Below are positions 40,982 to 52,638 of a DNA stretch of 64,000 nucleotides, piece by piece. The stretch lies in the NCBI GenBank assembly GCA_964542245.1, contig CAZITU010000002.1, positions 9,025-73,024 of the forward strand, in the 5' to 3' direction. The notes below the pieces were generated by a model, which ran no database searches, had not been told where the DNA came from, and was given only the letters and a program-made list of their open reading frames with translations. How positions within the stretch are numbered: position 1 is the first letter of the stretch; every line of letters begins with the position of its first letter. Origin of the DNA: an uncultured Nitrospirales bacterium (GTDB taxonomy: Bacteria; Nitrospirota; Nitrospiria; Nitrospirales; NS-4). The translations under genes were made by a program, and so were the position numbers.

Positions 40982-41320
40982 TTACCGGGGTCCATCCTCG
41001 CCGCCGACCGTCACAACGTACACGCGACGGTCCTCGGCCGTAAACTTCCACCCCATCCGCTTCTCGAACACGATCCGATGGACGCCGGGTTTGAGCGCGC
41101 GAAACTCGAAGGCGCGTTTCCCGGAGTCCACGGCGTTCGCGCTCTCACCGATCGTGCGCTCATAATCGTCGTTGACCAAAGACAGCACCTCAGCCTCATA
41201 GGAGGGAACGTAAATCTCCCCCCGGGTCCGGTCTTCCCACAACCGGATGGTGATAGTCGTCCCCACGCGGGTCTCCAGAGCCTTTTCCTGTCTCCAGCCT
41301 TCACCGGTCATGACGGACAT
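40982..41320 (-). CDS. Chagasin-family (I42) cysteine-peptidase inhibitor-like protein, no signal peptide
   Basis: 112 aa. TTITIRLWEDRTRGEIY...RAFEFRALKPGVHRIVFEKRMGW follows the I42 beta-sandwich pattern. Confidence 0.55.
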   Translation of the reverse strand: MSVMTGEGWRQEKALETRVGTTITIRLWEDRTRGEIYVPSYEAEVLSLVNDDYERTIGESANAVDSGKRAFEFRALKPGVHRIVFEKRMGWKFTAEDRRVYVVTVGGEDGPR

Positions 41321-41371: not shown

Positions 41372-41854
41372 TCAAAGCCGCAATGTAAACCGAAGGTCAG
41401 CCCCTAAAGCCAGCCGTTCCCGCCGTACGAACCCGGCGTGAGTTTCGATAACATAGCGCGCCTTCTCTTGAGGCGGGCCGTAACTCGGACATGTCTCGCT
41501 CAGGCATGGCTTGGCGTCCTCCGTGATCAGCAGGACGCGCTTGGCTTCATCGAGCCAGATGATGTCCACAGGGAACCGATATTGGCGTGTGTTTCGGCGA
41601 TGAAAATCCGCTCGCTCGAAGATGAACAGCATCCCCCGGTCAGAGGGGAGGGAATCCCGGAAGGCGAGCCCGGAGATCAGCATCAGCGGTCTGTCGCTGT
41701 CGGCGATTTCTACGTGCAGTTGGGCTCCGGACGGAAATGTGACCACCATGGACTCCGAACCTTGATTGGTCGTCATAAAATAGCTGCCTGCCATCAGCAA
41801 GGCAAGCGCGAGGAAAGCCAGCACGCCAAACCGGGTCGCTTGTGACTTCTCCAT
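41372..41854 (-). CDS. DUF192 domain protein with N-terminal membrane anchor/signal
   Basis: RGMLFIF...FHRRNTRQYRFPVDIIWLDEAKRVLLI...YVIETHAGF matches the DUF192 pattern. Confidence 0.7.
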   Translation of the reverse strand: MEKSQATRFGVLAFLALALLMAGSYFMTTNQGSESMVVTFPSGAQLHVEIADSDRPLMLISGLAFRDSLPSDRGMLFIFERADFHRRNTRQYRFPVDIIWLDEAKRVLLITEDAKPCLSETCPSYGPPQEKARYVIETHAGFVRRERLALGADLRFTLRL

Positions 41855-42533: not shown

Positions 42534-42911
42534 CTATTTCACGATGACGATCGAGCCGCCCACGTGCCCCGGGTGCAAGTGGCAGTAAAACTTGTACACG
42601 GAGAGCGCCTGATCGAGGTCGCCCATGGGGACCGACACCGTCACTTCCTCGCCCGGTTTGACGACCTGCTTGACCTTCATTGCATCAATGGCGAACCCGT
42701 GGTCTGCATCCATCTTATTAATCAGCTTGAACACGAGAGGCCCGGCCGTCCGCTGGCCTGACCGCAATTCCACATCGCCCCCGCCAAGCCAAAACTTGGC
42801 GCCCTGAATCTCCACTGCGACGAATTTACCATCCTGCGCCTGCGCAGGCGTTCCCGACAAGAATCCGATCGCGATGAACAAGAGCATCAACAACAGAGTC
42901 AACTTCTTCAT
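42534..42911 (-). CDS. Secreted single-domain cupredoxin-like protein
   Basis: Signal peptide MKKLTLLLMLLFIAIGFLSGTPAQA. Contains DADHGFAI and the C-terminal YKFYCHLHPGHVGGSIVIV, a type-1-copper-like Cys/His loop. Confidence 0.65.
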   Translation of the reverse strand: MKKLTLLLMLLFIAIGFLSGTPAQAQDGKFVAVEIQGAKFWLGGGDVELRSGQRTAGPLVFKLINKMDADHGFAIDAMKVKQVVKPGEEVTVSVPMGDLDQALSVYKFYCHLHPGHVGGSIVIVK

Positions 42912-43516: not shown

Positions 43517-44845
43517 GTGAACATCAGCGTCATCGGCACGGGGTACGTCGGACTAGTGACCGGGGCCTGTTTTGCCGAGTTCGGAATCCATGTGACCTGT
43601 ATGGACAAGGACGAGCGTCGCATCGCCGCGCTGGAGAAGGGAGAAATTCCCATCTACGAACCCGGTCTGTCGGAACTTGTCCAGAAGGGGCTCGCTGAGG
43701 GACGTATCGCCTTCACGACCAACTTGGGGCGGGCCGTCGAAAGCGCCCTGGTGATCTTCATTGCCGTTGGGACTCCTTCCCGTAAGGATGGATCGGCAGA
43801 CCTCTCGTTCGTCGAAGATGTCGGACGTGGAATCGCCGCCAACCTGAACGGCTACAAGGTGGTCGTGACCAAATCCACGGTCCCGGTCGGGACCGGAGAT
43901 CGGTTGCGCGACCTCATCGGCCGTCACGCAGGAAAGGAGGCCTCCTTCGATATCGTGTCGAACCCGGAGTTTCTTCGTGAGGGATCCGCCATCGAGGACT
44001 TCATGCGACCGAATCGGGTGGTGATCGGCGCCAGCAGTCCCCAAGCGGTGGCCGTCATGCGCGACCTGTATCGCCCCCTCTACCTGATCGAGACCCCGTT
44101 CGTGTTCACGGATGTCGCCACCGCCGAGATTATCAAGTACGCCTCCAACACCTTCTTGGCGACCAAGGTCTCGTTCATCAATGAAGTCGCGAACCTCTGC
44201 GAACGGGTCGGGGCCGACGTTCAGGTGGTCGCCAAAGCGATGGGCCTCGACCAGCGGATCGGCTCGAAGTTTCTTCACCCCGGCCCGGGCTACGGCGGGT
44301 CGTGCTTTCCGAAAGACACTGCGGCCCTGATCCAAACGGGGCAGCAAGCCGGATGCGTGATGGAGGTCGCCGCGGCGGCGACGCGGGCGAACGTCCGACA
44401 GCGGGCGCGCATGGTGGATAAGATTCGGGAGTCCGTCGGGGGACGGCTGCAAGGCAAGCGGGTGGGGGTACTGGGTCTCTCGTTCAAACCCAACACCAAT
44501 GATCTGCGCGACGCCCCGTCTCTGGAGATCATTCCGAGGTTGCAGCACGAAGGAGCAGAAATCCAGGCTTACGATCCTGCCGCGATGGATGAGGCACGGA
44601 CGCTCTTGCCCAACGTCACGCTCTGCGCCAACGCCTATGACGCAGCCGCGAGCGCCGATGCCTTGGTGCTCATGACCGAATGGAATCAGTTCAGGAATTT
44701 GGATCTGGAACGCCTTAAGGCTGGCCTCCGGTCGCCGGTCTTCGTAGACCTCCGCAACGTGTATGAGCCTGCCCGCATGGCCGCGCTCGGCTTCCAGTAC
44801 ACCTCTATCGGCCGCCCCACGCCCGTCCCGAAGGGAACGGAGTAG
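43517..44845 (+). CDS. ugd: UDP-glucose 6-dehydrogenase
   Basis: ISVIGTGYVGLVTGACFA Rossmann motif and the catalytic GGSCFPKD. GTG start. Confidence 0.93.
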   Translation: MNISVIGTGYVGLVTGACFAEFGIHVTCMDKDERRIAALEKGEIPIYEPGLSELVQKGLAEGRIAFTTNLGRAVESALVIFIAVGTPSRKDGSADLSFVEDVGRGIAANLNGYKVVVTKSTVPVGTGDRLRDLIGRHAGKEASFDIVSNPEFLREGSAIEDFMRPNRVVIGASSPQAVAVMRDLYRPLYLIETPFVFTDVATAEIIKYASNTFLATKVSFINEVANLCERVGADVQVVAKAMGLDQRIGSKFLHPGPGYGGSCFPKDTAALIQTGQQAGCVMEVAAAATRANVRQRARMVDKIRESVGGRLQGKRVGVLGLSFKPNTNDLRDAPSLEIIPRLQHEGAEIQAYDPAAMDEARTLLPNVTLCANAYDAAASADALVLMTEWNQFRNLDLERLKAGLRSPVFVDLRNVYEPARMAALGFQYTSIGRPTPVPKGTE

Positions 44846-44850
44846 CCACC

Positions 44851-45579
44851 TTACATCACTTCGGTTTTCGGCTTCGGCTTGTACCCCATCCGGTCCAGCA
44901 GCTTCCGGATCTTCGCCTGAAGAGCTTCATCCGCGCCCAGCATGACTTCCGTCAGAGGCTCGACGGCCGGTTTCCCGATCTTTCGCACGATTTCCGAGGC
45001 GGCCTGCCGCAGGTCGTCGTCCTCATGCGTCAGCAGGCTGGCCACGGCCGGCACGCTCGGCGCCCCGATCTTGATAAGGGAGTCATAGGCCCGTTGCCGA
45101 ATATCGTTGACCTCGTCCGTGAGGGCCTCGATGAGAGGGCCCACCGCGCGCGCGTCCCCTACCGTGCCCAGGACCTCCACCGCGTATTTGCGGGTGAGCC
45201 AATGGCCCTCCTTGAGCGCAGCAAGCATCTCCTCGGCGCGCGTCTTGTTCGCATCCCGCGACCGGATCGTGAAGCCCTTGACGATGCGTCGCTTGGCGGT
45301 CCCCGAGTGCAGGGTTCCCTGAATCCCGACGCCCGGCTCTTCTTCGATGACCCGAACCGTGACGCCGTCTCCAGGCTTGAGCTTCTTGAGTTCCTCCAAG
45401 AGCTCTTCCCCGACTTCCAACACGACCGTCTTGCCTTCGTAAGCCAGGAGTTCGATTTCCATGGTCCGGGCTTCGAGATCCACCTTGACGACCTTTTCGG
45501 AGATCAGATTGAACCCGTCCTTCTTGATCCCGGGGCCGCCTTTCGCGATCTGAATTAATTTCGGTGCTTCATCAGCCAT
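44851..45579 (-). CDS. HEAT-repeat protein 5 of 5: non-HEAT N-terminal domain (about 110 aa) plus about 4 HEAT/PBS-lyase-type repeats
   Basis: 242 aa. The N-terminal half (KLIQIAKGGPGIKKDGF..VTVRVIEEEPGVGIQG) has no repeat signature. The C-terminal half has VLGTVGDARAVGPLIEAL-type repeats. Ends ..LLDRMGYKPKPKTEVM. Confidence 0.75.
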   Translation of the reverse strand: MADEAPKLIQIAKGGPGIKKDGFNLISEKVVKVDLEARTMEIELLAYEGKTVVLEVGEELLEELKKLKPGDGVTVRVIEEEPGVGIQGTLHSGTAKRRIVKGFTIRSRDANKTRAEEMLAALKEGHWLTRKYAVEVLGTVGDARAVGPLIEALTDEVNDIRQRAYDSLIKIGAPSVPAVASLLTHEDDDLRQAASEIVRKIGKPAVEPLTEVMLGADEALQAKIRKLLDRMGYKPKPKTEVM

Positions 45580-45597
45580 GCCTGTGTCTCCTTTGCC

Positions 45598-46359
45598 TTA
45601 CGCGTTCGGCGGGGTCCACCCCAAGCTCGACAACGCCCCTTCCGCCGTTTCCCGGACCATTTCGTTTTCATCCTCCAACAGCGGGAGGAGGACGTCCACG
45701 GCCCCGCGGTCTTGCAACCGGGCCAGCGACTCGGCCGCATTCCGCCGCACCAGCCAGTCTTCGTCCCTGAGCGCTTCCCTTAATCCCTCCGCCGCACGCT
45801 TATCCCCGATCAAACCCAGTGCCTCGGCGGCGTGGCGCTTCACCATCCAGTTGCCCCCGGCGAGACCGTTCAGAAGACCATCCACGGCGCGTGGATCCGG
45901 GATCTTTTTGAGGGCCCTGGCCGCTTCTTCGCGCACCGCCTGATCGGTCAGCGCCTCCATCAGGCCTTCCACCGCCCGCGGGTCCCCGATCTTCTCGAGC
46001 GCCTCGACGGCTGCCAACCGGACCGCACCGTCCCGATCCTTGAGGGCGGTCAAGAGCGCAGCGATGGCCCGTTCGTCTTTCAGACGCCCTAGAGCCGCCG
46101 CAGCCTGCTCCCTGACCGCCCATTCGTCGTCCCTCAACGCTCCAAGCAGCGGTTCGACCGCTTCGGCCCCGACTTGAACAAGGGCCTGTCGGGCCGCCTC
46201 TCGAATGACTCGATCCTCGTCTGCAAAGAGCCCGATCAAGCGCTCGATCGCAGCCGGACCCATCTGCCCGAGACTGGCGGCCGCGTGATTCCGCAACTCA
46301 TCGTTGTCGTCACGCAAAGCCGCGAGGAGTTGTTCGATGCGGCGATCGGCCTCATTCAT
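45598..46359 (-). CDS. HEAT-repeat protein 4 of 5 (PBS-lyase HEAT-like repeats)
   Basis: 253 aa built almost entirely of about 31-aa units of the type D(D/E)xxVRxxAAxALGxIGDxRAVxxLxxAL. Ends ..LSSLGWTPPNA. Overlaps the upstream gene by 8 nt. Confidence 0.85.
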   Translation of the reverse strand: MNEADRRIEQLLAALRDDNDELRNHAAASLGQMGPAAIERLIGLFADEDRVIREAARQALVQVGAEAVEPLLGALRDDEWAVREQAAAALGRLKDERAIAALLTALKDRDGAVRLAAVEALEKIGDPRAVEGLMEALTDQAVREEAARALKKIPDPRAVDGLLNGLAGGNWMVKRHAAEALGLIGDKRAAEGLREALRDEDWLVRRNAAESLARLQDRGAVDVLLPLLEDENEMVRETAEGALSSLGWTPPNA

Positions 46360-47503
46360 CCGTCTGCTGTCCTTTTGCAGCCTGGGGGTTGGTGACCGAC
46401 ACCTCGCTGTCCCAGTCGTCGTCTTCTACCTTACTCGCTGCAGGGTGTTCCTCTGCCTGCAGCTTCTCCAACTTATCCAACATCAAGCCGCCGAGGTAAC
46501 TGACCAGCCCGTCCCGGTCTGATTTCATCGTTTGAATAAGCTTGCCGTGGGGTAGTAAAACCTTCACGTCCTTGATCTTTGACAAGGCTTCGGTGGCCGC
46601 CAGGCGGGTCGTCCGGTCCTCGATGGCCGCCACCAACACATCCACCGACCGCGAGTCGCCGAATTCACCCAATGCCTTGATGCAACTCTCCCGGACCCCC
46701 ATATCCCGGTCGGTCTTCGCCTTGTGGAGCAGGGGTTCGACGGCCCGGAGGTCTCCGATAATCCCGAGGGCTTGGGCGGCGGCCTCCCGGACCACCCACA
46801 GATCGTCTTCCAACGCTTCCAAGAGTTCCGAGACGGCGGGACGCCCCAGAGCAATCAGACCCATCGACACGCCGATCCGCGCTTCTTCCAGGGCCACCGT
46901 GTCATCACTATCCCGCAGCCGGTTCAAGATCTCGGCAATCCGCTCTCGTAGATCGGAAATGCGTTTGAGCGACCGAGACGCGGCCTCGCGCAGATCGGGA
47001 TAGGCCATCGCTTCAATCCAGGCATCAACGCTGCGGGGATCCGCCAGTTGTTCCAGCGCCACCGCGGCCATCTGGCGAGCCGTTGGATCCTGGCTTTTCA
47101 GCGTGGCGACCAGCGGCTCCAATGCGCCGGGATCCTTTAAACGCCCCAGAACTGCGGCGGCGGTGTCGCGATGAGCCTCTTCTTCCAGCAATTGGACCAA
47201 CGTGGCGAGGGACGCCGCATCCGACACATGCCCGATCGCTTCCGCCGCCGCTTCGCGGACGTTTGGATCAGGGTCCTTGAGAAGGCCCACCACCGGCACG
47301 CCGGCGGTCCGGTCCTTGATCCGCCCCAGCATGCGCGCCGCTTCGGCACGCAGGCGCGGGTTTTCATCCGAAAGCGACGCAAGCAGGCACCTCACGGCTT
47401 CCGGGCCGCGCTTCAACAACTCGGCCGTGGCGTTCATCCGCTTCCAGTCTTCCTCGTGGATGAGCTCCTTGACCAGGTCCTCTGTCTTGTCCTTCTTGGC
47501 CAT
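46352..47503 (-). CDS. HEAT-repeat protein 3 of 5
   Basis: 383 aa of the same repeat type, with an acidic C-terminal tail (EDDDWDSEVSVTNPQAAKGQQTDE). Confidence 0.85.
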   Translation of the reverse strand: MAKKDKTEDLVKELIHEEDWKRMNATAELLKRGPEAVRCLLASLSDENPRLRAEAARMLGRIKDRTAGVPVVGLLKDPDPNVREAAAEAIGHVSDAASLATLVQLLEEEAHRDTAAAVLGRLKDPGALEPLVATLKSQDPTARQMAAVALEQLADPRSVDAWIEAMAYPDLREAASRSLKRISDLRERIAEILNRLRDSDDTVALEEARIGVSMGLIALGRPAVSELLEALEDDLWVVREAAAQALGIIGDLRAVEPLLHKAKTDRDMGVRESCIKALGEFGDSRSVDVLVAAIEDRTTRLAATEALSKIKDVKVLLPHGKLIQTMKSDRDGLVSYLGGLMLDKLEKLQAEEHPAASKVEDDDWDSEVSVTNPQAAKGQQTDE

Positions 47504-47520
47504 ACACTTTCAGCCCGAGC

Positions 47521-48831
47521 TTAGCCTTTAGCCTTATCCGCTGTCGCTTGGCCTGCTGTCCCCTCCTGACCCTCCTCGGGCGGGGTCCAGCCCAACTGCC
47601 CAAGAATATCCAACAAACAGGCCTGCAAGGCGGATTGAGCGTCCAGACGGTTAGTGGCGAACGACATAATGTTCTCGCTGATCGCTTCCACCTTGGACGC
47701 CTCGGGATCGTTGTAAAATTCCACCACTTGGTCAATGACCTGAGGACCGAGCTCCACCAATGCAATAGCGGCCTTCTCGCGAAGCTGTGTGATCTTCAAA
47801 GCCAGCAAAAGCGCCGGGACGCTACGCAAGTCATTGATATGACCCAATGCCAATGCCGCCTGCTCCCGGATGAACCACTCTTCGCTGACGATGCACCCCG
47901 GCATCGGCGTGCCTTTGAGACTAATGCCGACTCCTTCCAGAACCCGGATCAGGGGCTCGACGGAGCGTGGGTCGGCGAGCATCCCCAGGGCCATGATCGC
48001 CCGAACCCTGACAGAGCCGTCCTGCATGGCCTCGATGAGGGCGGGTACCGCGCTGGGGTCGCCGATCATGCCCAGCGCGATGGCGGCGTCTTCCCGCACC
48101 GCGCGGTCCTTGTCTTTCAACAACGCAATCAGTCCGGGGACAGGCCGTGAGTCCCGCAACCACGACCGGCCGGTTGGATAGTCGCTGGTGATCCCCCCCA
48201 AGGCCTGGACCGAATGCAGGCGCACCTGAAAATTCTCATCTTTGAGGCCTTCGATTAATGGCTCGACCGTAGCCTCTCCGACCTGGGTCAGCGCAATCGT
48301 CGCGCTCACACGTACCAGCTTGGAGGAGTCTTTGAACAGGGCTATCAGGCCCTTGATGGCTTTGGGGTCACCGATCCGCCCTAAGGCTTCGGCCGCCACC
48401 GTTTTAACCGCGCCATCACGGTCCCGCAAAGCGCCAATCAACCCGTCAACCGCCCGCTTGTCCTTAATCAGGCCGAGCGCCCTGGCCGCACTCTCCCGAA
48501 CTCGCCACCGCTCGTCTCGAAGGGCCGCCACCAACCGTTCGACGGCCGGCACCCCGATGGTGACAAAGTCCTCCACCGCCCCATCCCGACAATCCTTAAT
48601 CAGATCGCCCAGCATCGGAACCACCACTTCGATGACACGGGGACCTCCGATCCTCGCCAGTGCATGGCCCGCATACATCCGGACGGACCAGTACTCGTCC
48701 TGCAAGGCCTCGATCAGGGCGTCCGCCTCGCTGGGGCCTGCCTGCCCGACAAGAGCCTGGGCCGCCTCCTCCCGGGTCGCATCGTCCGGGTCGGTCAGGG
48801 CTTCCAGCCAGTCTGCAAGAGTGTTTGCCAT
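47521..48831 (-). CDS. HEAT-repeat protein 2 of 5
   Basis: 436 aa of the same repeat type. Ends ..LGQLGWTPPEEGQEGTAGQATADKAKG. Confidence 0.85.
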   Translation of the reverse strand: MANTLADWLEALTDPDDATREEAAQALVGQAGPSEADALIEALQDEYWSVRMYAGHALARIGGPRVIEVVVPMLGDLIKDCRDGAVEDFVTIGVPAVERLVAALRDERWRVRESAARALGLIKDKRAVDGLIGALRDRDGAVKTVAAEALGRIGDPKAIKGLIALFKDSSKLVRVSATIALTQVGEATVEPLIEGLKDENFQVRLHSVQALGGITSDYPTGRSWLRDSRPVPGLIALLKDKDRAVREDAAIALGMIGDPSAVPALIEAMQDGSVRVRAIMALGMLADPRSVEPLIRVLEGVGISLKGTPMPGCIVSEEWFIREQAALALGHINDLRSVPALLLALKITQLREKAAIALVELGPQVIDQVVEFYNDPEASKVEAISENIMSFATNRLDAQSALQACLLDILGQLGWTPPEEGQEGTAGQATADKAKG

Positions 48832-48853
48832 CTTACCTACCTTCTTTCTTCTT

Positions 48854-49954
48854 TCATTTCATGACGACTTTGGGGCGCCATCCGACTTCAGAGAGGATGG
48901 CCCTCGCGTGAAACAGAATGTTCGAATCCGTCTCGACCTTCATGGCCTCCAGCAGAGGACCCGCCACTCGGAGGCCTAATTGGCCCAAGGCCCCTGCGGC
49001 ATTGGCCCGCAGCCGTGTATCTTTGAGCGCTCGGATGAGCGGATCAATTGCCCGATCCTCCCCGATTTCTGCAAGGGCGCCGATGGCAAAGATCTGCACT
49101 TCCATCTCTTCCACGTCCAGCTCACCGGACTCATCTCCGCAGACCGAGACCTTGCGGACGTTGGCCGGCCGACCCCTACCGGTCACCACGTCAATCAGCG
49201 TGTCCACGGCCCGCGGGTCCTTGAGTTTGCCCAGGGCCTCCACCGCGAAGGGCCTGACGTCCAAATCCGTCAGGGCCTTGGTGAGCGGCTCTAACGCCGC
49301 GACGCCCCCGATGCTCCCCAACGCCTTCGCGGCATCCTGGCGGACCGCCGCGTCGCGGTCATTGAGCATCACCTGACACAACGGCCCAACCGCTTCTTCC
49401 GCGCCGATCTTCCCCAGGGCTTCGCACGCATGGAGCCGCAAGATCCATTCCTGGTGCCGCAATGCCGCGAGCAGCGTCGCCAAAGCCGGCCGGCCGATGC
49501 GGGCCAAGGCGCCGGTCGCATCCGCGCGGACCGCCTTGACATGATCAATCAGAAGGGGAATCAGTGGCTTAACGGCCCGTTCGTCTCCAAGGACGCCAAG
49601 GCCTTTGGCGGCGTGCATGCGGACGACCCAATTGGGGCTGGCCAGGCATTCAATCAACGGTTCCAGAGCACGCTGATCCCGCAGGTCCTTGAGAATGGAC
49701 ACCGCGGCTTCTTGCACGTTGCCATTCGGGTCCTGCAAGACCGAGATCAGGGTCGGGACCGCCGCCTGGCCGATTTTCCGCAAAGCCGCGGTCGCCGCAT
49801 CCCGCACGGCTCGGTCCTCGTCATGGAGAACCTCCACGAGCGGACCGACCGCTCTGGGATCGGCAAACTCCCCCAGGAGCGTGGCGGCCTCCTCCCGAAG
49901 CGCCCAGTCCTCGTCCTTGAGAGCCGCTATTTCCTCGAGTACACGATCGCTCAT
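48854..49954 (-). CDS. HEAT-repeat protein 1 of 5
   Basis: 366 aa of the same repeat type. Ends ..ILSEVGWRPKVVMK. Starts 41 nt downstream of the polA stop. Confidence 0.85.
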   Translation of the reverse strand: MSDRVLEEIAALKDEDWALREEAATLLGEFADPRAVGPLVEVLHDEDRAVRDAATAALRKIGQAAVPTLISVLQDPNGNVQEAAVSILKDLRDQRALEPLIECLASPNWVVRMHAAKGLGVLGDERAVKPLIPLLIDHVKAVRADATGALARIGRPALATLLAALRHQEWILRLHACEALGKIGAEEAVGPLCQVMLNDRDAAVRQDAAKALGSIGGVAALEPLTKALTDLDVRPFAVEALGKLKDPRAVDTLIDVVTGRGRPANVRKVSVCGDESGELDVEEMEVQIFAIGALAEIGEDRAIDPLIRALKDTRLRANAAGALGQLGLRVAGPLLEAMKVETDSNILFHARAILSEVGWRPKVVMK

Positions 49955-49995
49955 GGATTGATCAAGTTAGCACACGGTTTTAAGCATGGTCAACT

Positions 49996-52638
49996 TTACG
50001 GATGGGCCTGGCGCCAGTTCTTGCCGACGCCGACATCCACCTTCAGCGGCACCGCCAACTCCATGACCCTCTCCATCTCCTCAGTCACCGCTTTGCGGAC
50101 AGGGTCCAGTTCGGACTCCGCCACCTCGAAGATCAGCTCATCGTGGACCTGGAGAATCATCTTGGCTGATAGTTTCTCGGCCACCAGCCGACGCCGGACG
50201 GCCAGCATGGCGAGCTTGATGACATCCGCCGCCGTGCCTTGAATCGGCGTGTTCATAGCCATCCGCTCCCCGAACCCCCGCTGCGTCGGGTTGCCGCTTT
50301 GCAATTCAGGAATCGGGCGCCGGCGGCCGAGCAGAGTCGTCACGTATCCGTTCTGTTTGGCCTCCGCGATCGTCCGGTCTAGGAAGGCCTTCACTCCCTG
50401 GAAGCGCGCGAAGTACGCGTCAATGTATTTCTTGGCCTCCTGCTGTGAGATCCCTAACTGGGAGGAGAGCCCGAAGGGACTGATCCCGTAGATGATGCCG
50501 AAGTTGACCGTCTTGGCCACCCGTCGCATGTCCTTCGTAATCTGTCCTCCCGGCAGACCGAAGATTTCTATGGCTGTGGTCGTGTGAATGTCCTCTCCTC
50601 GAACAAAGGCCCCGATGAGGACAGGGTCTTGGGAGAGGTGCGCGAGGATGCGAGGTTCGATCTGGTTGTAGTCCGCCGAAAGCAACAAGCAGCCAGCCTC
50701 GCTGACAAACGCCTCACGGATTCGCCCGCCCCATTCCCCCTTGATGGGAATGTTCTGGAGGTTCGGTTCCGACGACGAGAGCCGCCCGGTCGCCGTGACG
50801 GTCTGGTTGAGCGAGGTGTGCAGGCGGCCCGTCTCGGGGCTGACTAGCAGAGGCAAGGCTTCCACGTATGTGGACTTCAGCTTGCTGAGACTGCGGTAGT
50901 TCAGGATATCGGCCGGCAAGTCATGCTGCACGGCCAGTTGCGTCAGCACCTCCTCGTCCGTGGAGTAGCCGGTTTTGGTCTTCTTGATGGGCGTCAGCTT
51001 GAGTTGCTCGAAGAGGACCTCGCTCAATTGCTTGGGCGAATTGACGTTGAACTCCGCGCCGGCCTTTCGATAAATCTCATCAAGGATCCCTGCGAGCTGT
51101 TGACCAAGCTCTTTCGCCAAGCGGGCCAGGGCGGCGGTGTCCACGCGGAACCCGTTCGCTTCGATCTCGGCCAGCACGACGGTCAGAGGAAGCTCCACTC
51201 GCTCGAAGAGATCCCTCAGTCCATCGGCGGCCAGCTTCTCGGCCAGGACCGCCTTCAGGCGGGCAACGGCATTGGCCGCGGCCCCCGCCCGCGCCGCGGC
51301 CTCCTCTATCTCCACCACATCGAAGAGATCACCCTTTTTCGGCTTCTTCGAGCCAGCGACGCCTCCCAGCGACTCCGAGAGATATTCCTGGCTGATGATC
51401 TCCAGCGCCGGGGCGCGACGGTTGGGGTTGAGAAGAAACGCGGCCACCATCGTATCGAAGCCGGGTTCTGTCGGTGAGATGCCGGCCCGTCTCAAGGCGA
51501 TCCACGCAGTTTTGAAGTCGTGCGCGTAGATTTTCGTGGACGGATCATCCACAGCCGCTCGGACGGCCGCCAACCCCGCCTCCCCGTGAAGATAGACGGG
51601 CTTCCCAGGATAAGGGCACATCCCCACGCCCATGATGGCCGCCCTCAGGGGATCCGCCCCCGTTAATTCGCACTGGATCGCCACTTCGCCCGAGGCCCTG
51701 ATGTCCTCCAAAAGGCGCGTAATGGTCGCCGGATCGTCGAGCACGACGACGCGTTCCTGGGGGTCTCGCTCCTCATCCCCCTCGGGTTGTATCCCTTTGA
51801 GCAAGCCCCAGAACTCCAGCTCGCGAAAGAGGGCGGTCAGGTCGGCGCCCCGCGCCTCGCCGAGCCGGAACCGGTCTCGGTCGAAAGATACCGGACAGTC
51901 GGTCACTATAGTCGCGAGGGTCCGGCTCAGGCGCGCGTCCTCCGCGTGCGCCTCCAACAGGTCCCGGAGCTTTTCGCTTTTCACATCGGGAAGGCGCGTC
52001 AGGAGGTTTTCAATCGAGCCGAACTCGGCGATGAGCTTTCTGGCCGTTTTCTCGCCGACGCCCTTCACGCCGGGAATATTGTCGGTGGCGTCCCCCATAA
52101 GGCCCATGACCTCGACCACGCGGGCCGGCTCGACCCCGAAGCGATCGAGACAGTCCTTTTCCGTAAAAGTCTTATCCTTCACGGAGTCGAAGATGCGGAT
52201 CGCGGGCGTTAAGAGTTGGAACATGTCTTTATCACCGGTCACAATGACTACATCCAGCCCTTGCGACGCGGCTTGGACGGCCAGCGCGCCGATGAGATCA
52301 TCTGCCTCGTAGCCCTGGAGCTTCACGACCGGGATCGCGTAGGCCTCGACCACACGGTGGATATAAGGCACTTGTTGCGACAGGGCGTCGGGCATCGGAG
52401 GCCGGTGGGCTTTATACTCCTTGAATTCTTCGTGGCGAAGGGTCGGCCCCTTTTCGTCGAACGCCACGGCCAGGTAGTCCGGCCGCCGCTCGCGGACGAT
52501 CTTCTGCAACATGGTCGTGAAGCCGTAGATGGCGTTGGTGGGTAAGCCGGTCGAGGTGGAAAGAGCGGGAAGGGCGAAAAAGGCGCGGTAGAGATAGGCG
52601 CTCCCGTCAATGAGGTAGAGGATCGGGCGGTCCTTCAT
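49996..52638 (-). CDS. polA: DNA polymerase I
   Basis: 5'-nuclease domain (LYLIDGSAYLYRAF), a 3'-5' exonuclease-like region, and the polymerase motifs DYNQIEPRILAH and QVHDELIFE. 880 aa. Confidence 0.97.
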   Translation of the reverse strand: MKDRPILYLIDGSAYLYRAFFALPALSTSTGLPTNAIYGFTTMLQKIVRERRPDYLAVAFDEKGPTLRHEEFKEYKAHRPPMPDALSQQVPYIHRVVEAYAIPVVKLQGYEADDLIGALAVQAASQGLDVVIVTGDKDMFQLLTPAIRIFDSVKDKTFTEKDCLDRFGVEPARVVEVMGLMGDATDNIPGVKGVGEKTARKLIAEFGSIENLLTRLPDVKSEKLRDLLEAHAEDARLSRTLATIVTDCPVSFDRDRFRLGEARGADLTALFRELEFWGLLKGIQPEGDEERDPQERVVVLDDPATITRLLEDIRASGEVAIQCELTGADPLRAAIMGVGMCPYPGKPVYLHGEAGLAAVRAAVDDPSTKIYAHDFKTAWIALRRAGISPTEPGFDTMVAAFLLNPNRRAPALEIISQEYLSESLGGVAGSKKPKKGDLFDVVEIEEAAARAGAAANAVARLKAVLAEKLAADGLRDLFERVELPLTVVLAEIEANGFRVDTAALARLAKELGQQLAGILDEIYRKAGAEFNVNSPKQLSEVLFEQLKLTPIKKTKTGYSTDEEVLTQLAVQHDLPADILNYRSLSKLKSTYVEALPLLVSPETGRLHTSLNQTVTATGRLSSSEPNLQNIPIKGEWGGRIREAFVSEAGCLLLSADYNQIEPRILAHLSQDPVLIGAFVRGEDIHTTTAIEIFGLPGGQITKDMRRVAKTVNFGIIYGISPFGLSSQLGISQQEAKKYIDAYFARFQGVKAFLDRTIAEAKQNGYVTTLLGRRRPIPELQSGNPTQRGFGERMAMNTPIQGTAADVIKLAMLAVRRRLVAEKLSAKMILQVHDELIFEVAESELDPVRKAVTEEMERVMELAVPLKVDVGVGKNWRQAHP

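What the first reader, a model, noticed from the sequence alone, without database searches (positions are those of the whole stretch)
44851..49954. Five tandem, co-directional paralogous HEAT/PBS-lyase-repeat genes forming an operon-like array directly downstream of polA
Five consecutive minus-strand ORFs (366, 436, 383, 253 and 242 aa) are built almost entirely of the same unit of about 31 aa: D(D/E)xxVRxxAAxALGxIGDxRAVxxLxxAL. The intergenic distances are 22, 17, -8 and 18 nt, with only 41 nt to the polA stop. This suggests co-transcription and translational coupling. The block contains no enzyme, transporter or regulator domain, so about 5.1 kb of coding capacity goes solely to alpha-solenoid scaffold proteins. 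Isolated HEAT_2/HEAT_PBS proteins are common, but an ordered five-gene array next to a replication/repair polymerase is not a described system. I see no integrase, tRNA or repeat boundary, so it does not look like a recent mobile insertion. My inference is that the five proteins form a hetero-oligomeric solenoid scaffold or adaptor complex. The function is unknown.
Basis: partly seen in the sequence, partly recalled or inferred. Interest (0 to 1): 0.75.

Follow-up and report, generated by a model that had tools for sequence, protein, structure and literature searches.

The report
Conserved five-gene HEAT-repeat cluster, Nitrospirales
Five neighbouring genes for helical-repeat "scaffold" proteins are real, ancient, kept together and under strong selection in every Nitrospirales genome examined, but their position next to the DNA polymerase gene is a local accident and their function is still unknown.

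Summary
Five minus-strand genes (366, 436, 383, 253 and 242 aa; gaps 22, 17, -8 and 18 nt; 41 nt after polA) are built from the 31-residue HEAT_2/HEAT_PBS repeat.

They are old paralogs, 30-39% identical to each other. Each has its own 1:1 ortholog across the order Nitrospirales, including the genus Nitrospira. I found 47 complete arrays on metagenome contigs plus about 11 complete or end-truncated ones on genome and assembly contigs. No locus with enough sequence lacked a member. dN/dS against the closest relative is 0.04-0.12.

The polA linkage is confined to the window's own family. In Nitrospira the order is H2, H1, H3, H4, H5. There an exported phosphodiesterase-like gene and a small orphan gene precede the array, and polA lies kilobases away or elsewhere.

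The claim that the block holds only solenoid is not quite right. H5 has a lineage-restricted N-terminal domain predicted to be an OB-like beta-barrel. H1 and H2 carry invariant cysteine-containing loops.

Positions that form the binding surface in engineered alphaRep proteins are better conserved between orthologs than other exposed positions. All five proteins are acidic and have no signal peptide or membrane segment.

The most likely reading is a co-expressed, probably hetero-oligomeric, protein-binding scaffold specific to this order. Bilin-lyase, hydroxylase, DNA-glycosylase and defence readings failed their tests. This is an undescribed, moderately interesting lead.

The parts
48854..49954 (-). 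H1, 366 aa, about 11 HEAT_2/HEAT_PBS repeats. C-terminus ends in the conserved motif LGWRP.
   Evidence: ORF. Pfam HEAT_2 E=5.4e-69. Repeats. 1:1 orthologs at 46-55% identity in Nitrospira. dN/dS 0.09 against L004.
49100..49180 (-). H1 non-repeat insertion, residues about 259-285, with invariant Cys272 (motif C-G-D/S). It sits in the turn between the two helices of a repeat.
   Evidence: Ortholog alignment of 17 sequences.
47521..48831 (-). H2, 436 aa, about 11-12 repeats plus conserved loops. LGWTP lies near the C-terminus.
   Evidence: Orthologs at 52-55% identity in Nitrospira. dN/dS 0.12.
47881..47913 (-). H2 loop G-x-P-x-P-G-C-I-V-S-E, residues 307-317, with invariant Cys313. It occupies the position homologous to the H1 cysteine loop.
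   Evidence: Near-identical in 20 of 20 orthologs.
48160..48198 (-). H2 inter-repeat loop G-G-(I/M)-T-x-D-Y-x-x-G-R-x-W, residues 212-224.
   Evidence: Conserved across both lineages.
46352..47503 (-). H3, 383 aa, about 9-10 degenerate repeats. It has a conserved DRDGLVSY motif and an acidic C-terminal tail, and no GW-x-P motif.
   Evidence: Orthologs at 44-49% identity in Nitrospira. dN/dS 0.12.
46352..46359 (-). 8-nt overlap between the H3 stop codon and the H4 start codon (translational-coupling geometry).
   Evidence: The same 8-nt overlap appears in the called genes of L082, L084, L086 and L087. Overlaps of -1, -4 or -8 nt predominate in 60 loci.
45598..46359 (-). H4, 253 aa, exactly 8 repeats and nothing else. 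It ends in LGWTPP and is, with H5, the best conserved member.
   Evidence: Orthologs are 64-69% identical in Nitrospira, against 57-59% for polA. dN/dS 0.10.
44851..45579 (-). H5, 242 aa. An N-terminal non-HEAT domain is followed by about 4 repeats. The C-terminal motif MGYKPK is invariant.
   Evidence: dN/dS 0.04.
45262..45516 (-). H5 N-terminal domain, residues about 22-106. Predicted five-stranded beta-barrel with one helix between strands 3 and 4 (OB-fold topology).
   Evidence: AlphaFold2 models, pLDDT 72-77. All top Foldseek matches in the PDB are OB folds (IF1, CusF, SSB, aaRS anticodon domains), best E 2.8e-3, TM 0.4-0.6. No Pfam match at E<=1. Only 32 clusters among 1.84 billion representatives, all at least 43% identical.
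49996..52638 (-). polA, the upstream neighbour. I do not consider it part of the system.
   Evidence: Pfam families recorded. Adjacency is restricted to the window's family.
43517..44845 (+). UDP-glucose 6-dehydrogenase gene, convergent with H5 with 5 nt between the stop codons. It is the only neighbour conserved in both lineages, but it lies on the opposite strand.

Best explanation
What it is. The block is a vertically inherited core gene cluster, so far seen only in the order Nitrospirales. It encodes five anciently diverged, non-redundant alpha-solenoid proteins of the 31-residue alphaRep/MTH187-type HEAT-like repeat family.

Shown here:
- All five genes are real and under strong purifying selection.
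- All five are retained together in every genome and contig examined.
- They are tightly packed, with a conserved H3/H4 start-stop overlap.
- The proteins are soluble and acidic, with no signal peptide.
- The repeat positions that make the ligand-binding surface in alphaRep complexes are hypervariable between repeats, yet preferentially conserved between orthologs.

Inferred:
- The five are produced together in fixed proportions and act together as a cytoplasmic protein-binding scaffold or adaptor. This is most likely a hetero-oligomer, by analogy with the CpcE/CpcF heterodimer of HEAT_PBS paralogs.
- Each subunit would present a distinct, conserved concave surface to partners or to the other subunits.
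- H5 would add an OB-like beta-barrel as an extra ligand-binding module.
- The invariant cysteine loops of H1 and H2 would form an additional conserved site.
- The client is unknown, but presumably something specific to this order.

The position directly downstream of polA is a rearrangement in one family and carries no functional meaning.
For: Reality and repeat type:
-. The closest solved sequences are artificial alphaRep proteins, then MTH187 (1TE4) and 6VEH.

Old paralogs with 1:1 orthologs:
- The five are 30-39% identical to each other.
- Each scores 2-4 times higher against its own ortholog in Nitrospira than against any paralog.

Retention:
- 20 complete arrays of the window type and 27 of the Nitrospira type among 80 metagenome loci. 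Every apparent absence lies at a contig end.
- Genome and assembly loci add L002, L004-L007, L059, L036, L082, L084, L086 and L087. L032 is cut just before H5.

Selection:
- dN/dS is 0.04-0.12 against L004, where dS is 0.83-0.97.
- H4 (64-69%) is more conserved across the two lineages than polA (57-59%), and H5 (57-61%) is about equally conserved.

Coupling:
- Median gaps in the window's family are 1, 7, -1 and 17 nt.
- The H3/H4 overlap is present in both lineages.

Binding surface:
- alphaRep variable positions 18, 19, 22, 23, 26 and 30 (PMC3754942) correspond to repeat-HMM positions 13, 14, 17, 18, 21 and 25.
- These have the highest between-repeat entropy.
- Their ortholog conservation is 0.69, against 0.60 for other non-framework positions (Mann-Whitney p=1e-4). 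The direction is the same in all five proteins.

Localisation:
- pI is 4.8-6.1 and there is no hydrophobic segment.
- N-termini are conserved and carry no signal peptide.

Precedents:
- CpcE/CpcF are HEAT_PBS proteins that act as a heterodimer (PMC2327270).
Against: - There is no direct evidence for mutual binding, for co-transcription, or for any client.
- In Nitrospira, H2 is separated from H1 by 28-4547 nt (median 181). In some lineages a reverse-strand gene lies between them. H2 instead overlaps the upstream orphan exported-protein gene. The five are therefore not always one transcription unit.
- The surface-conservation contrast is modest (0.69 against 0.60). It rests on 12-20 phylogenetically related sequences per group.
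- The OB assignment rests on medium-confidence models and on Foldseek E-values no better than 3e-3.
- Solenoid proteins can also act singly.
Confidence: 0.45

Rival explanations
1. Five independent adaptor or chaperone proteins. Each paralog binds its own client and they do not assemble with each other. Clustering would reflect common regulation or simply their origin by tandem duplication.
For: - Each paralog has its own conserved, distinct surface and loops.
- H1 and H2 have swapped order, and H2 has been detached into another transcription unit in Nitrospira. Both are tolerated.
- HEAT_PBS proteins can act as single adaptors (PMC2666748).
Against: - None of the five has been lost in any of about 58 arrays.
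- Start-stop overlaps and 1-nt gaps are typical of subunits made in fixed ratio.
- Adjacency has been kept over a divergence at which polA is only 57-59% identical.
Confidence: 0.25
2. A cofactor-handling enzyme of the E/F-lyase type. H1 and H2, the closest pair and each with an invariant cysteine loop, would form a CpcE/CpcF-like heterodimer. That heterodimer would hold a tetrapyrrole or other cofactor and attach it to, or remove it from, a Nitrospirales-specific client. H3 to H5 would be accessory subunits.
For: - CpcE, NblB and CpcF are the top NCBIfam hits.
- CpcE (5N3U) is detected by sequence, with E=1e-10 for H4 and 5e-8 for H2.
- H1 and H2 are each other's best paralogs, at 36% identity over 385 aa.
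- They carry homologous invariant Cys loops.
- E/F lyases are heterodimers of HEAT_PBS proteins (PMC2327270).
Against: - All NCBIfam scores are far below the equivalog cut-offs, for example CpcE 95-112 bits for H1-H4 (22 for H5) against 330 and NblB 27-103 against 300. The hits can be explained by the shared repeat alone.
- No phycobiliprotein or bilin-synthesis gene lies nearby.
- From my own knowledge, Nitrospirales are not known to have phycobiliproteins.
- No catalytic role is known to me for a cysteine in E/F lyases.
Confidence: 0.12
3. A DNA replication or repair accessory linked to polA. Examples would be a HEAT-like DNA-binding or glycosylase protein of the AlkC/AlkD type, or a polymerase-associated scaffold in which the OB domain of H5 binds single-stranded DNA.
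For: - The array lies 41 nt downstream of polA in the window, and no promoter-like or terminator-like site falls between or within the genes.
- Nth, UvrB and MutS are encoded in the same 64 kb.
- The OB-like domain resembles SSB, IF1 and RecO folds.
Against: - polA adjacency is confined to one family. It is broken by a 4.1-kb insertion in L111 and absent in N. kreftii, a N. defluvii-like MAG and Kam-Ns4a.
- H1-H4 carry net charges of -10 to -18, which does not suit DNA binding. The OB domain has net charge 0.
- No Pfam or NCBIfam DNA-repair family matches.
- The surrounding region is general housekeeping, including GroEL, Ffh, ClpX, NusA and IF2.
Confidence: 0.06
4. An anti-phage defence or other accessory or mobile module built on HEAT repeats.
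For: PADLOC models HEAT-ARM_XIII and HEAT_CxxC_PD-DEXK give hits.
Against: - The hits cover only short repeat stretches of very long models.
- There is no nuclease, ATPase or other effector domain.
- The cluster sits at the same chromosomal place across an order, with native G+C and no tRNA gene in the window.
- dN/dS of about 0.1 is unlike fast-evolving conflict genes.
Confidence: 0.02

Closest known systems
alphaRep / MTH187-type 31-residue HEAT-like repeat proteins (Pfam HEAT_2 PF13646, HEAT_PBS PF03130; PDB 1TE4, 6VEH, and the artificial alphaRep series such as 3LTJ and 4ZV6)
   Same: - Same 31-residue unit, (V/I)ExLIxALxDxDxxVRxxAAxALGxIGDxRA.
- The best solved-structure matches by sequence run from E=1e-109 to 1e-15.
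- The same positions are hypervariable between repeats.
   Different: - The natural members solved so far are single short proteins of unknown function, and the alphaReps are artificial.
- Here there are five specialised paralogs in a conserved cluster. They carry non-repeat loops with invariant Cys, a conserved C-terminal G-(W/Y)-x-P motif and one OB-like domain.
CpcE/CpcF (and PecE/F, CpeY/Z) E/F-type phycobilin lyases; NblB
   Same: - HEAT_PBS repeat proteins.
- The paralogous subunits work as a heterodimer (PMC2327270). That their genes are adjacent is from my own knowledge.
- They are the top NCBIfam hits for H1-H4.
   Different: - Scores are a third or less of the equivalog cut-offs.
- There are five genes rather than two.
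- The organism is non-photosynthetic, and no phycobiliprotein context is visible.
[quoted passage not shown]
   Same: - A HEAT_PBS-only protein in a non-photosynthetic prokaryote.
- It acts through protein-protein contacts and together with the product of a neighbouring gene (PMC2666748).
   Different: - It is a single gene in a chemotaxis region.
- No chemotaxis or motility genes flank the Nitrospirales array.
Deoxyhypusine hydroxylase (DOHH, PDB 4D4Z)
   Same: A HEAT-repeat protein detectable by sequence, with E=1e-8 for H4 and 2e-7 for H2.
   Different: The four His-Glu metal-binding motifs are absent. H1, H2 and H4 have no HE dipeptide at all. H3 and H5 have one each, neither at a repeat metal-site position.

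Membership tests
HEAT_2 / HEAT_PBS (alphaRep-type HEAT-like repeat proteins) | Score above the Pfam gathering thresholds for PF13646 and PF03130. | tested here: met
   HEAT_2 scores 229, 189, 159, 201 and 58 bits against a cut-off of 27.7. HEAT_PBS scores 143, 127, 81, 114 and 27.7 bits against a cut-off of 20.9.
HEAT_2 / HEAT_PBS (alphaRep-type HEAT-like repeat proteins) | Tandem 31-residue two-helix units with the framework L..L.D....VR..A..AL...GD..A. | tested here: met
   31 units were aligned. Framework positions are 86-97% identical between repeats. The closest solved sequences are alphaRep proteins and MTH187.
E/F-type bilin lyase (CpcE, CpcF, CpeY) and NblB | Score above the NCBIfam equivalog cut-off. 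| tested here: not met
   Best scores are CpcE 112 against 330, CpcF 79 against 220, NblB 103 against 300 and CpeY 48 against 600.
E/F-type bilin lyase (CpcE, CpcF, CpeY) and NblB | A phycobiliprotein substrate and bilin synthesis in the same organism. | not testable with these tools
   None is seen in the 64-kb window or in the flanks of related loci. The whole genome is not available. That Nitrospirales lack phycobilisomes is from my own knowledge.
Deoxyhypusine hydroxylase | Four conserved His-Glu motifs that bind the di-iron site. | tested here: not met
   HE dipeptides number 0, 0, 1, 0 and 1 in H1 to H5.
HEAT-like repeat DNA glycosylases (AlkC/AlkD) | A basic concave DNA-binding surface and a family-specific sequence match. 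| tested here: not met
   Net charges are -10, -17, -18, -14 and -2, with pI 4.8-6.1. No such Pfam or NCBIfam family appears among the hits.
OB fold (H5 residues about 22-106) | A five-stranded closed beta-barrel with a helix between strands 3 and 4. | tested here: met
   Both AlphaFold2 models give the order E23-34, E39-44, E51-56, H58-64, E72-80, E97-106. This is a prediction with pLDDT of about 72-88 in the strands.
OB fold (H5 residues about 22-106) | Significant structural or sequence match to known OB-fold families. | tested here: inconclusive
Operon (single transcription unit) | Same strand, short or negative intergenic distances, and conserved adjacency. | tested here: met
   Gaps are 22, 17, -8 and 18 nt in the window. 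Family medians are 1, 7, -1 and 17 nt. In Nitrospira this holds for H1-H3-H4-H5 only.
Operon (single transcription unit) | One transcript spanning the junctions. | not testable with these tools
   No RNA data are available. The promoter and terminator consensus scan found nothing inside the array, but it is weak and built for sigma-70 sites.
Known anti-phage defence systems (PADLOC) | A full-length match to a system component together with its partner genes. | tested here: not met
   Only partial repeat-level matches to HEAT-ARM_XIII (a 1972-position model), HEAT_CxxC_PD-DEXK and WGR_XIII. No partner genes are present.

The most novel reading that the evidence does not exclude
H1 to H5 assemble into a previously unknown, Nitrospirales-specific five-subunit alpha-solenoid machine. 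It would include an OB-fold subunit and a cysteine-lined site at the H1/H2 interface. It would be needed for assembly, cofactor loading or turnover of a lineage-defining cytoplasmic component of nitrite oxidisers and comammox bacteria. In the genus Nitrospira it may be functionally tied to the exported phosphodiesterase-like enzyme and the orphan protein whose genes overlap H2.
Probability: 0.2. Interest if true: 0.65.

Novelty: new variant of a known kind. Interest (0 to 1): 0.4.

Why it matters
Nitrospirales carry out nitrite oxidation and complete ammonia oxidation in soils, waters and treatment plants, yet much of their conserved core genome is unannotated.

These five genes take up about 5 kb. 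Two of them are as well conserved as DNA polymerase I or better. All five were present in every genome and contig examined. In Nitrospira defluvii the H5 ortholog is annotated only as "protein of unknown function, contains HEAT-like repeat".

Prokaryotic multi-subunit solenoid assemblies are rare outside cyanobacterial bilin lyases. If the five form a complex, it would be a lineage-specific scaffold with a tractable set of conserved surfaces, loops and one orphan domain to mutate.

There is also a methodological point. The natural biology of the alphaRep repeat family, which is widely used in protein engineering, is almost unknown. This cluster offers a natural case with clear orthology.

The finding does not show anything about DNA replication.

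Tried and rejected
Function searches that gave nothing specific:
- NCBIfam and PADLOC scans gave only sub-threshold or repeat-level hits.
- Pfam at E<=1 found nothing for the H5 N-domain, the H3 tail, the Nitrospira 145-aa orphan or the 419-aa upstream gene.

Literature:
- Four searches (Nitrospira with HEAT repeat, with PBS lyase, with HEAT-like repeat, and bacterial HEAT operons) found no description of the array.

Fold searches:

Hypotheses rejected:
- polA linkage as a functional clue. It is lineage-specific and was interrupted in L111.
- Mobile-element origin. There are no tRNA genes, G+C is native and synteny is conserved.
- Recent tandem duplication. DNA repeats are only 60-72% alike.

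Open or uninformative:
- The Nitrospira-type upstream genes (phosphodiesterase-like and 145-aa) were sought in the window by tblastn and not found. Whether the window's genome has them elsewhere is unknown.
- A check of whether the C-terminal G-W-x-P motif is a general cap of the repeat family was uninformative. alphaRep repeats have G-G or G-D there.
- The apparent 824-aa H1-H2 fusion ORF in L005 is an out-of-frame upstream extension, not a fusion.

Not attempted: looking for members outside Nitrospirales with H1-H4 as queries. Only the H5 N-domain was used for that question.

Full report
OBSERVATION

- H1 48854-49954, 366 aa
- H2 47521-48831, 436 aa
- H3 46352-47503, 383 aa
- H4 45598-46359, 253 aa
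- H5 44851-45579, 242 aa

The polA stop lies 41 nt upstream of H1. The intergenic distances are 22, 17, -8 and 18 nt. The window is a JGI metagenome contig (3300022563, Ga0212128_10000050), and its public gene calls are the same five genes.

All five pass the Pfam gathering thresholds for HEAT_2 (E from 5e-69 to 9e-16) and HEAT_PBS. A repeat HMM seeded on H4 delimits about 11, 11, 9, 8 and 3-4 units of 31 residues in H1 to H5. H4 consists of eight units and nothing else.

By sequence, the closest solved structures are the artificial alphaRep proteins, which are consensus designs of this very repeat. Next come MTH187 (1TE4) and 6VEH. CpcE (5N3U) and deoxyhypusine hydroxylase (4D4Z) are only distant matches.

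At DNA level the units are 60-72% alike, so nothing here is a recent duplication. The five proteins are 30-39% identical to each other.

WHERE IT COMES FROM, AND CONSERVATION

Using polA as an anchor that is unbiased with respect to the array, I fetched 80 genome loci.
- The window's polA is 69-82% identical to that of uncultured "Nitrospirales bacterium" MAGs.
- It is 56-62% identical to polA of the genus Nitrospira and related Nitrospiraceae or Nitrospirota MAGs.
- It is 48-49% identical to Thermodesulfovibrionales polA.

In the close family, the order polA-H1-H2-H3-H4-H5 followed by a convergent UDP-glucose dehydrogenase gene recurs in every locus long enough to show it (L002, L004-L007, L059).

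In Nitrospira each of the five has a clear 1:1 ortholog. The bit score to the ortholog is 2-4 times the score to any paralog. The order there is H2, H1, H3, H4, H5. The array begins 3-7 kb or more downstream of polA (L017, L021, L032, L036, L046, L047, L049, L050, L073) or is unlinked to it.

Look-ups of H5 orthologs show what lies upstream of the cluster:
- Lon in Ca. N. kreftii
- polA followed by one reverse-strand gene in Ca. N. bockiana
- a GGDEF gene in a N. defluvii-like MAG
- a transposase in strain Kam-Ns4a

The polA loci from Thermodesulfovibrionales and other phyla contain no HEAT ORF within 10 kb.

A second, independent sample of 80 metagenome loci was anchored on H5. It gave 20 complete arrays of the window type and 27 of the Nitrospira type. 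No member was missing wherever the contig covers its position.

SELECTION AND PACKING

Against the closest relative (L004, dS 0.83-0.97), dN/dS is 0.09, 0.12, 0.12, 0.10 and 0.04 for H1 to H5.

Between the two lineages, H4 (64-69% identity) is better conserved than polA (57-59%), and H5 (57-61%) is about as well conserved.

In the window's family the median gaps are 1 nt (H1-H2), 7 nt (H2-H3), -1 nt (H3-H4) and 17 nt (H4-H5). The polA-H1 gap is larger and variable: 41 nt in the window and 57-129 nt in relatives. In L111 it holds a 4.1-kb insertion with a Fic-like gene, and the array there is intact.

The 8-nt H3/H4 overlap is present in the called genes of all four Nitrospira genomes and assemblies looked up.

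In Nitrospira the H2-H1 gap has a median of 181 nt and sometimes contains a reverse-strand gene. H2 is instead overlapped by 8 or 20 nt by an upstream orphan gene of about 145 aa. That gene follows an exported PF01663 phosphodiesterase-like gene.

The conserved core unit is therefore H1-H3-H4-H5 with H2 always adjacent. The window's single five-gene block directly behind polA is one family's arrangement.

A sigma-70 promoter and terminator consensus scan finds no site inside the array. That is weak evidence.

WHAT THE PROTEINS LOOK LIKE

All five are acidic: pI 4.8-6.1, with net charges of -10, -17, -18, -14 and -2. None has a hydrophobic segment or signal peptide.

H5 is not all solenoid. Residues 1-112 have no Pfam match at E<=1. 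Two AlphaFold2 runs, one on the full length and one on the domain alone, give the same topology: strand, strand, strand, helix, strand, strand, with pLDDT of about 72-88 in the strands.

All fifty listed Foldseek matches in the PDB are OB-fold proteins or contain an OB-type domain. They include IF1, CusF, SSB, aaRS anticodon-binding domains and RecO. The match is only at fold level, with best E 2.8e-3 and TM 0.4-0.6.

An exhaustive HMMER scan of 1.84 billion representative proteins finds this domain in only 32 clusters, all at least 43% identical. The seven I inspected are mostly fragments or frameshifted copies of the same protein. It therefore looks like a lineage-restricted orphan domain.

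Ortholog alignments of 12-20 sequences per group reveal invariant non-repeat features:
- in H2, the loop G-x-P-x-P-G-C-I-V-S-E (Cys313) and the loop G-G-(I/M)-T-x-D-Y-x-x-G-R-x-W
- in H1, a loop at the homologous position with invariant Cys272
- a C-terminal L-G-W-x-P motif in H1, H2 and H4, and an invariant M-G-Y-K-P-K in H5
- in H3, D-R-D-G-L-V-S-Y followed by an acidic tail

IS THERE A CONSERVED BINDING SURFACE?

In the alphaRep scaffold the randomised, target-contacting positions are 18, 19, 22, 23, 26 and 30 of the repeat (PMC3754942). In my repeat register these are positions 13, 14, 17, 18, 21 and 25.

These are exactly the six positions with the highest between-repeat entropy in the 31 aligned units. 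Yet across orthologs they are conserved at 0.69. Other non-framework positions are conserved at 0.60, and framework positions at 0.83. The one-sided Mann-Whitney p is 1e-4, and the direction is the same in each of the five proteins.

The sequences are related to each other and the contrast is modest. Still, it is what one expects if each paralog keeps a specific ligand-binding face.

MECHANISM

Shown: five real, co-located, strongly constrained, non-redundant soluble solenoid proteins. Their putative binding faces are conserved and differ between paralogs. One carries an OB-like domain, and the start-stop geometry is typical of coupled translation.

Inferred: they are made together and work together as a cytoplasmic scaffold or adaptor, most likely a hetero-oligomer. 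The nearest precedent is CpcE/CpcF, two HEAT_PBS proteins that function only as a heterodimer (PMC2327270). A HEAT_PBS protein acting as an adaptor in a non-photosynthetic prokaryote is also documented (PMC2666748).

I put this reading at 0.45. The rivals are:
- independent adaptors, 0.25
- a lyase-like cofactor handler built around the H1/H2 cysteine loops, 0.12
- a DNA-related role suggested by polA and the OB domain, 0.06
- defence or mobile, 0.02

The DNA reading loses most of its support because the polA adjacency is not conserved and the proteins are strongly acidic.

MEMBERSHIP TESTS
- HEAT_2/HEAT_PBS: met.
- CpcE, CpcF, NblB and CpeY equivalogs: not met, with scores a third or less of the cut-offs.
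- Deoxyhypusine hydroxylase: not met, as there are no His-Glu motifs.
- AlkC/AlkD-type DNA glycosylase: not met.
- PADLOC defence systems: only partial repeat matches.
- OB fold for the H5 N-domain: topology met on the model, but significance inconclusive.

NOVELTY AND SCORE

The repeat family is well known, and single HEAT_2 proteins of unknown function are common. The following are not described in the searched literature:
- a five-paralog cluster with 1:1 orthology seen so far only in Nitrospirales
- its universal retention in the loci examined
- the orphan OB-like domain
- the invariant cysteine loops

The N. defluvii H5 ortholog is annotated as "protein of unknown function, contains HEAT-like repeat".

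I class it as a new variant of a known kind, with moderate interest (0.4). It is a solid, testable lead in an ecologically important lineage. It has no demonstrated function, and it lacks the polA connection that made it look more striking.

Noticed in passing
L084:2608-5467; L082:4138-6982; L086:3849-6763; L087:2264-5228: In the genus Nitrospira, two genes always precede H2: an exported AP-superfamily gene (PF01663 Phosphodiest, about 341-364 aa) and an orphan exported gene of about 145-170 aa. The orphan's stop overlaps the H2 start by 8 or 20 nt in 18 of 27 loci. Neither gene is in the 64-kb window.
   Followed up: partly
L111:1833-5913: In one member of the window's family, a 4.1-kb insertion sits between polA and H1. 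It carries a Fic-like gene (HPFRDGNGR motif) and two unknown ORFs of 291 and 459 aa. The HEAT array downstream is intact.
   Followed up: partly
C-terminus of the H2 orthologs, e.g. in L082 and L084: H2 of the genus Nitrospira has an extra conserved C-terminal tail, A-D-N-L-R-V-D-R-P-L-G-x-T-G-R-F-G-P-S-G-D. The window's family lacks it. It looks like a short linear motif.
   Followed up: no
L084:5530-6795 (-); L087:5281-6570 (-): In some Nitrospira lineages, a reverse-strand exported protein of about 420 aa lies between H2 and H1. It has weak LVIVD and YNCE beta-propeller hits. It splits the five genes into two transcription units.
   Followed up: partly
window 42534-42911 (-): A 125-aa ORF has a signal-peptide-like N-terminus and C-H-L-H-P-G-H near its C-terminus. 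This may be a small cupredoxin-like metal protein, which is my guess from the motif. No Pfam hit is on record, and blastp detected a homolog in only some related loci.
   Followed up: no
window 44851-50242 (+ strand): Long antisense ORFs lie opposite the HEAT genes and the polA 3' end, for example 48242-48979 (245 aa), 49430-50242 (270 aa) and 45025-45558 (177 aa). I read them as stop-poor antisense frames typical of high-G+C DNA, not as genes.
   Followed up: partly
L084:16721-17038; L086:16803-17120; L087:16804-17154: A small Rieske-protein gene sits between the DUF192 and Inhibitor_I42 genes in Nitrospira. It is absent from that position in the window, where 41372-41854 is followed directly by 40982-41320.
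   Followed up: no
L002: The NrdJ gene (554 + 266 aa) and the UDP-glucose dehydrogenase gene (232 + 280 aa) are each split into two ORFs in this MAG. These are probably assembly frameshifts rather than biology.
   Followed up: no
window 1-64000: The window is a dense housekeeping region with no tRNA genes. It encodes GroEL, a CtpA-like S41 protease, an M23 peptidase, Ffh, UvrB, Nnr, MutS, a ClpX-like ATPase, an NtrC-type regulator, RimP, Nth, S21 and class II RNR.
   Followed up: partly
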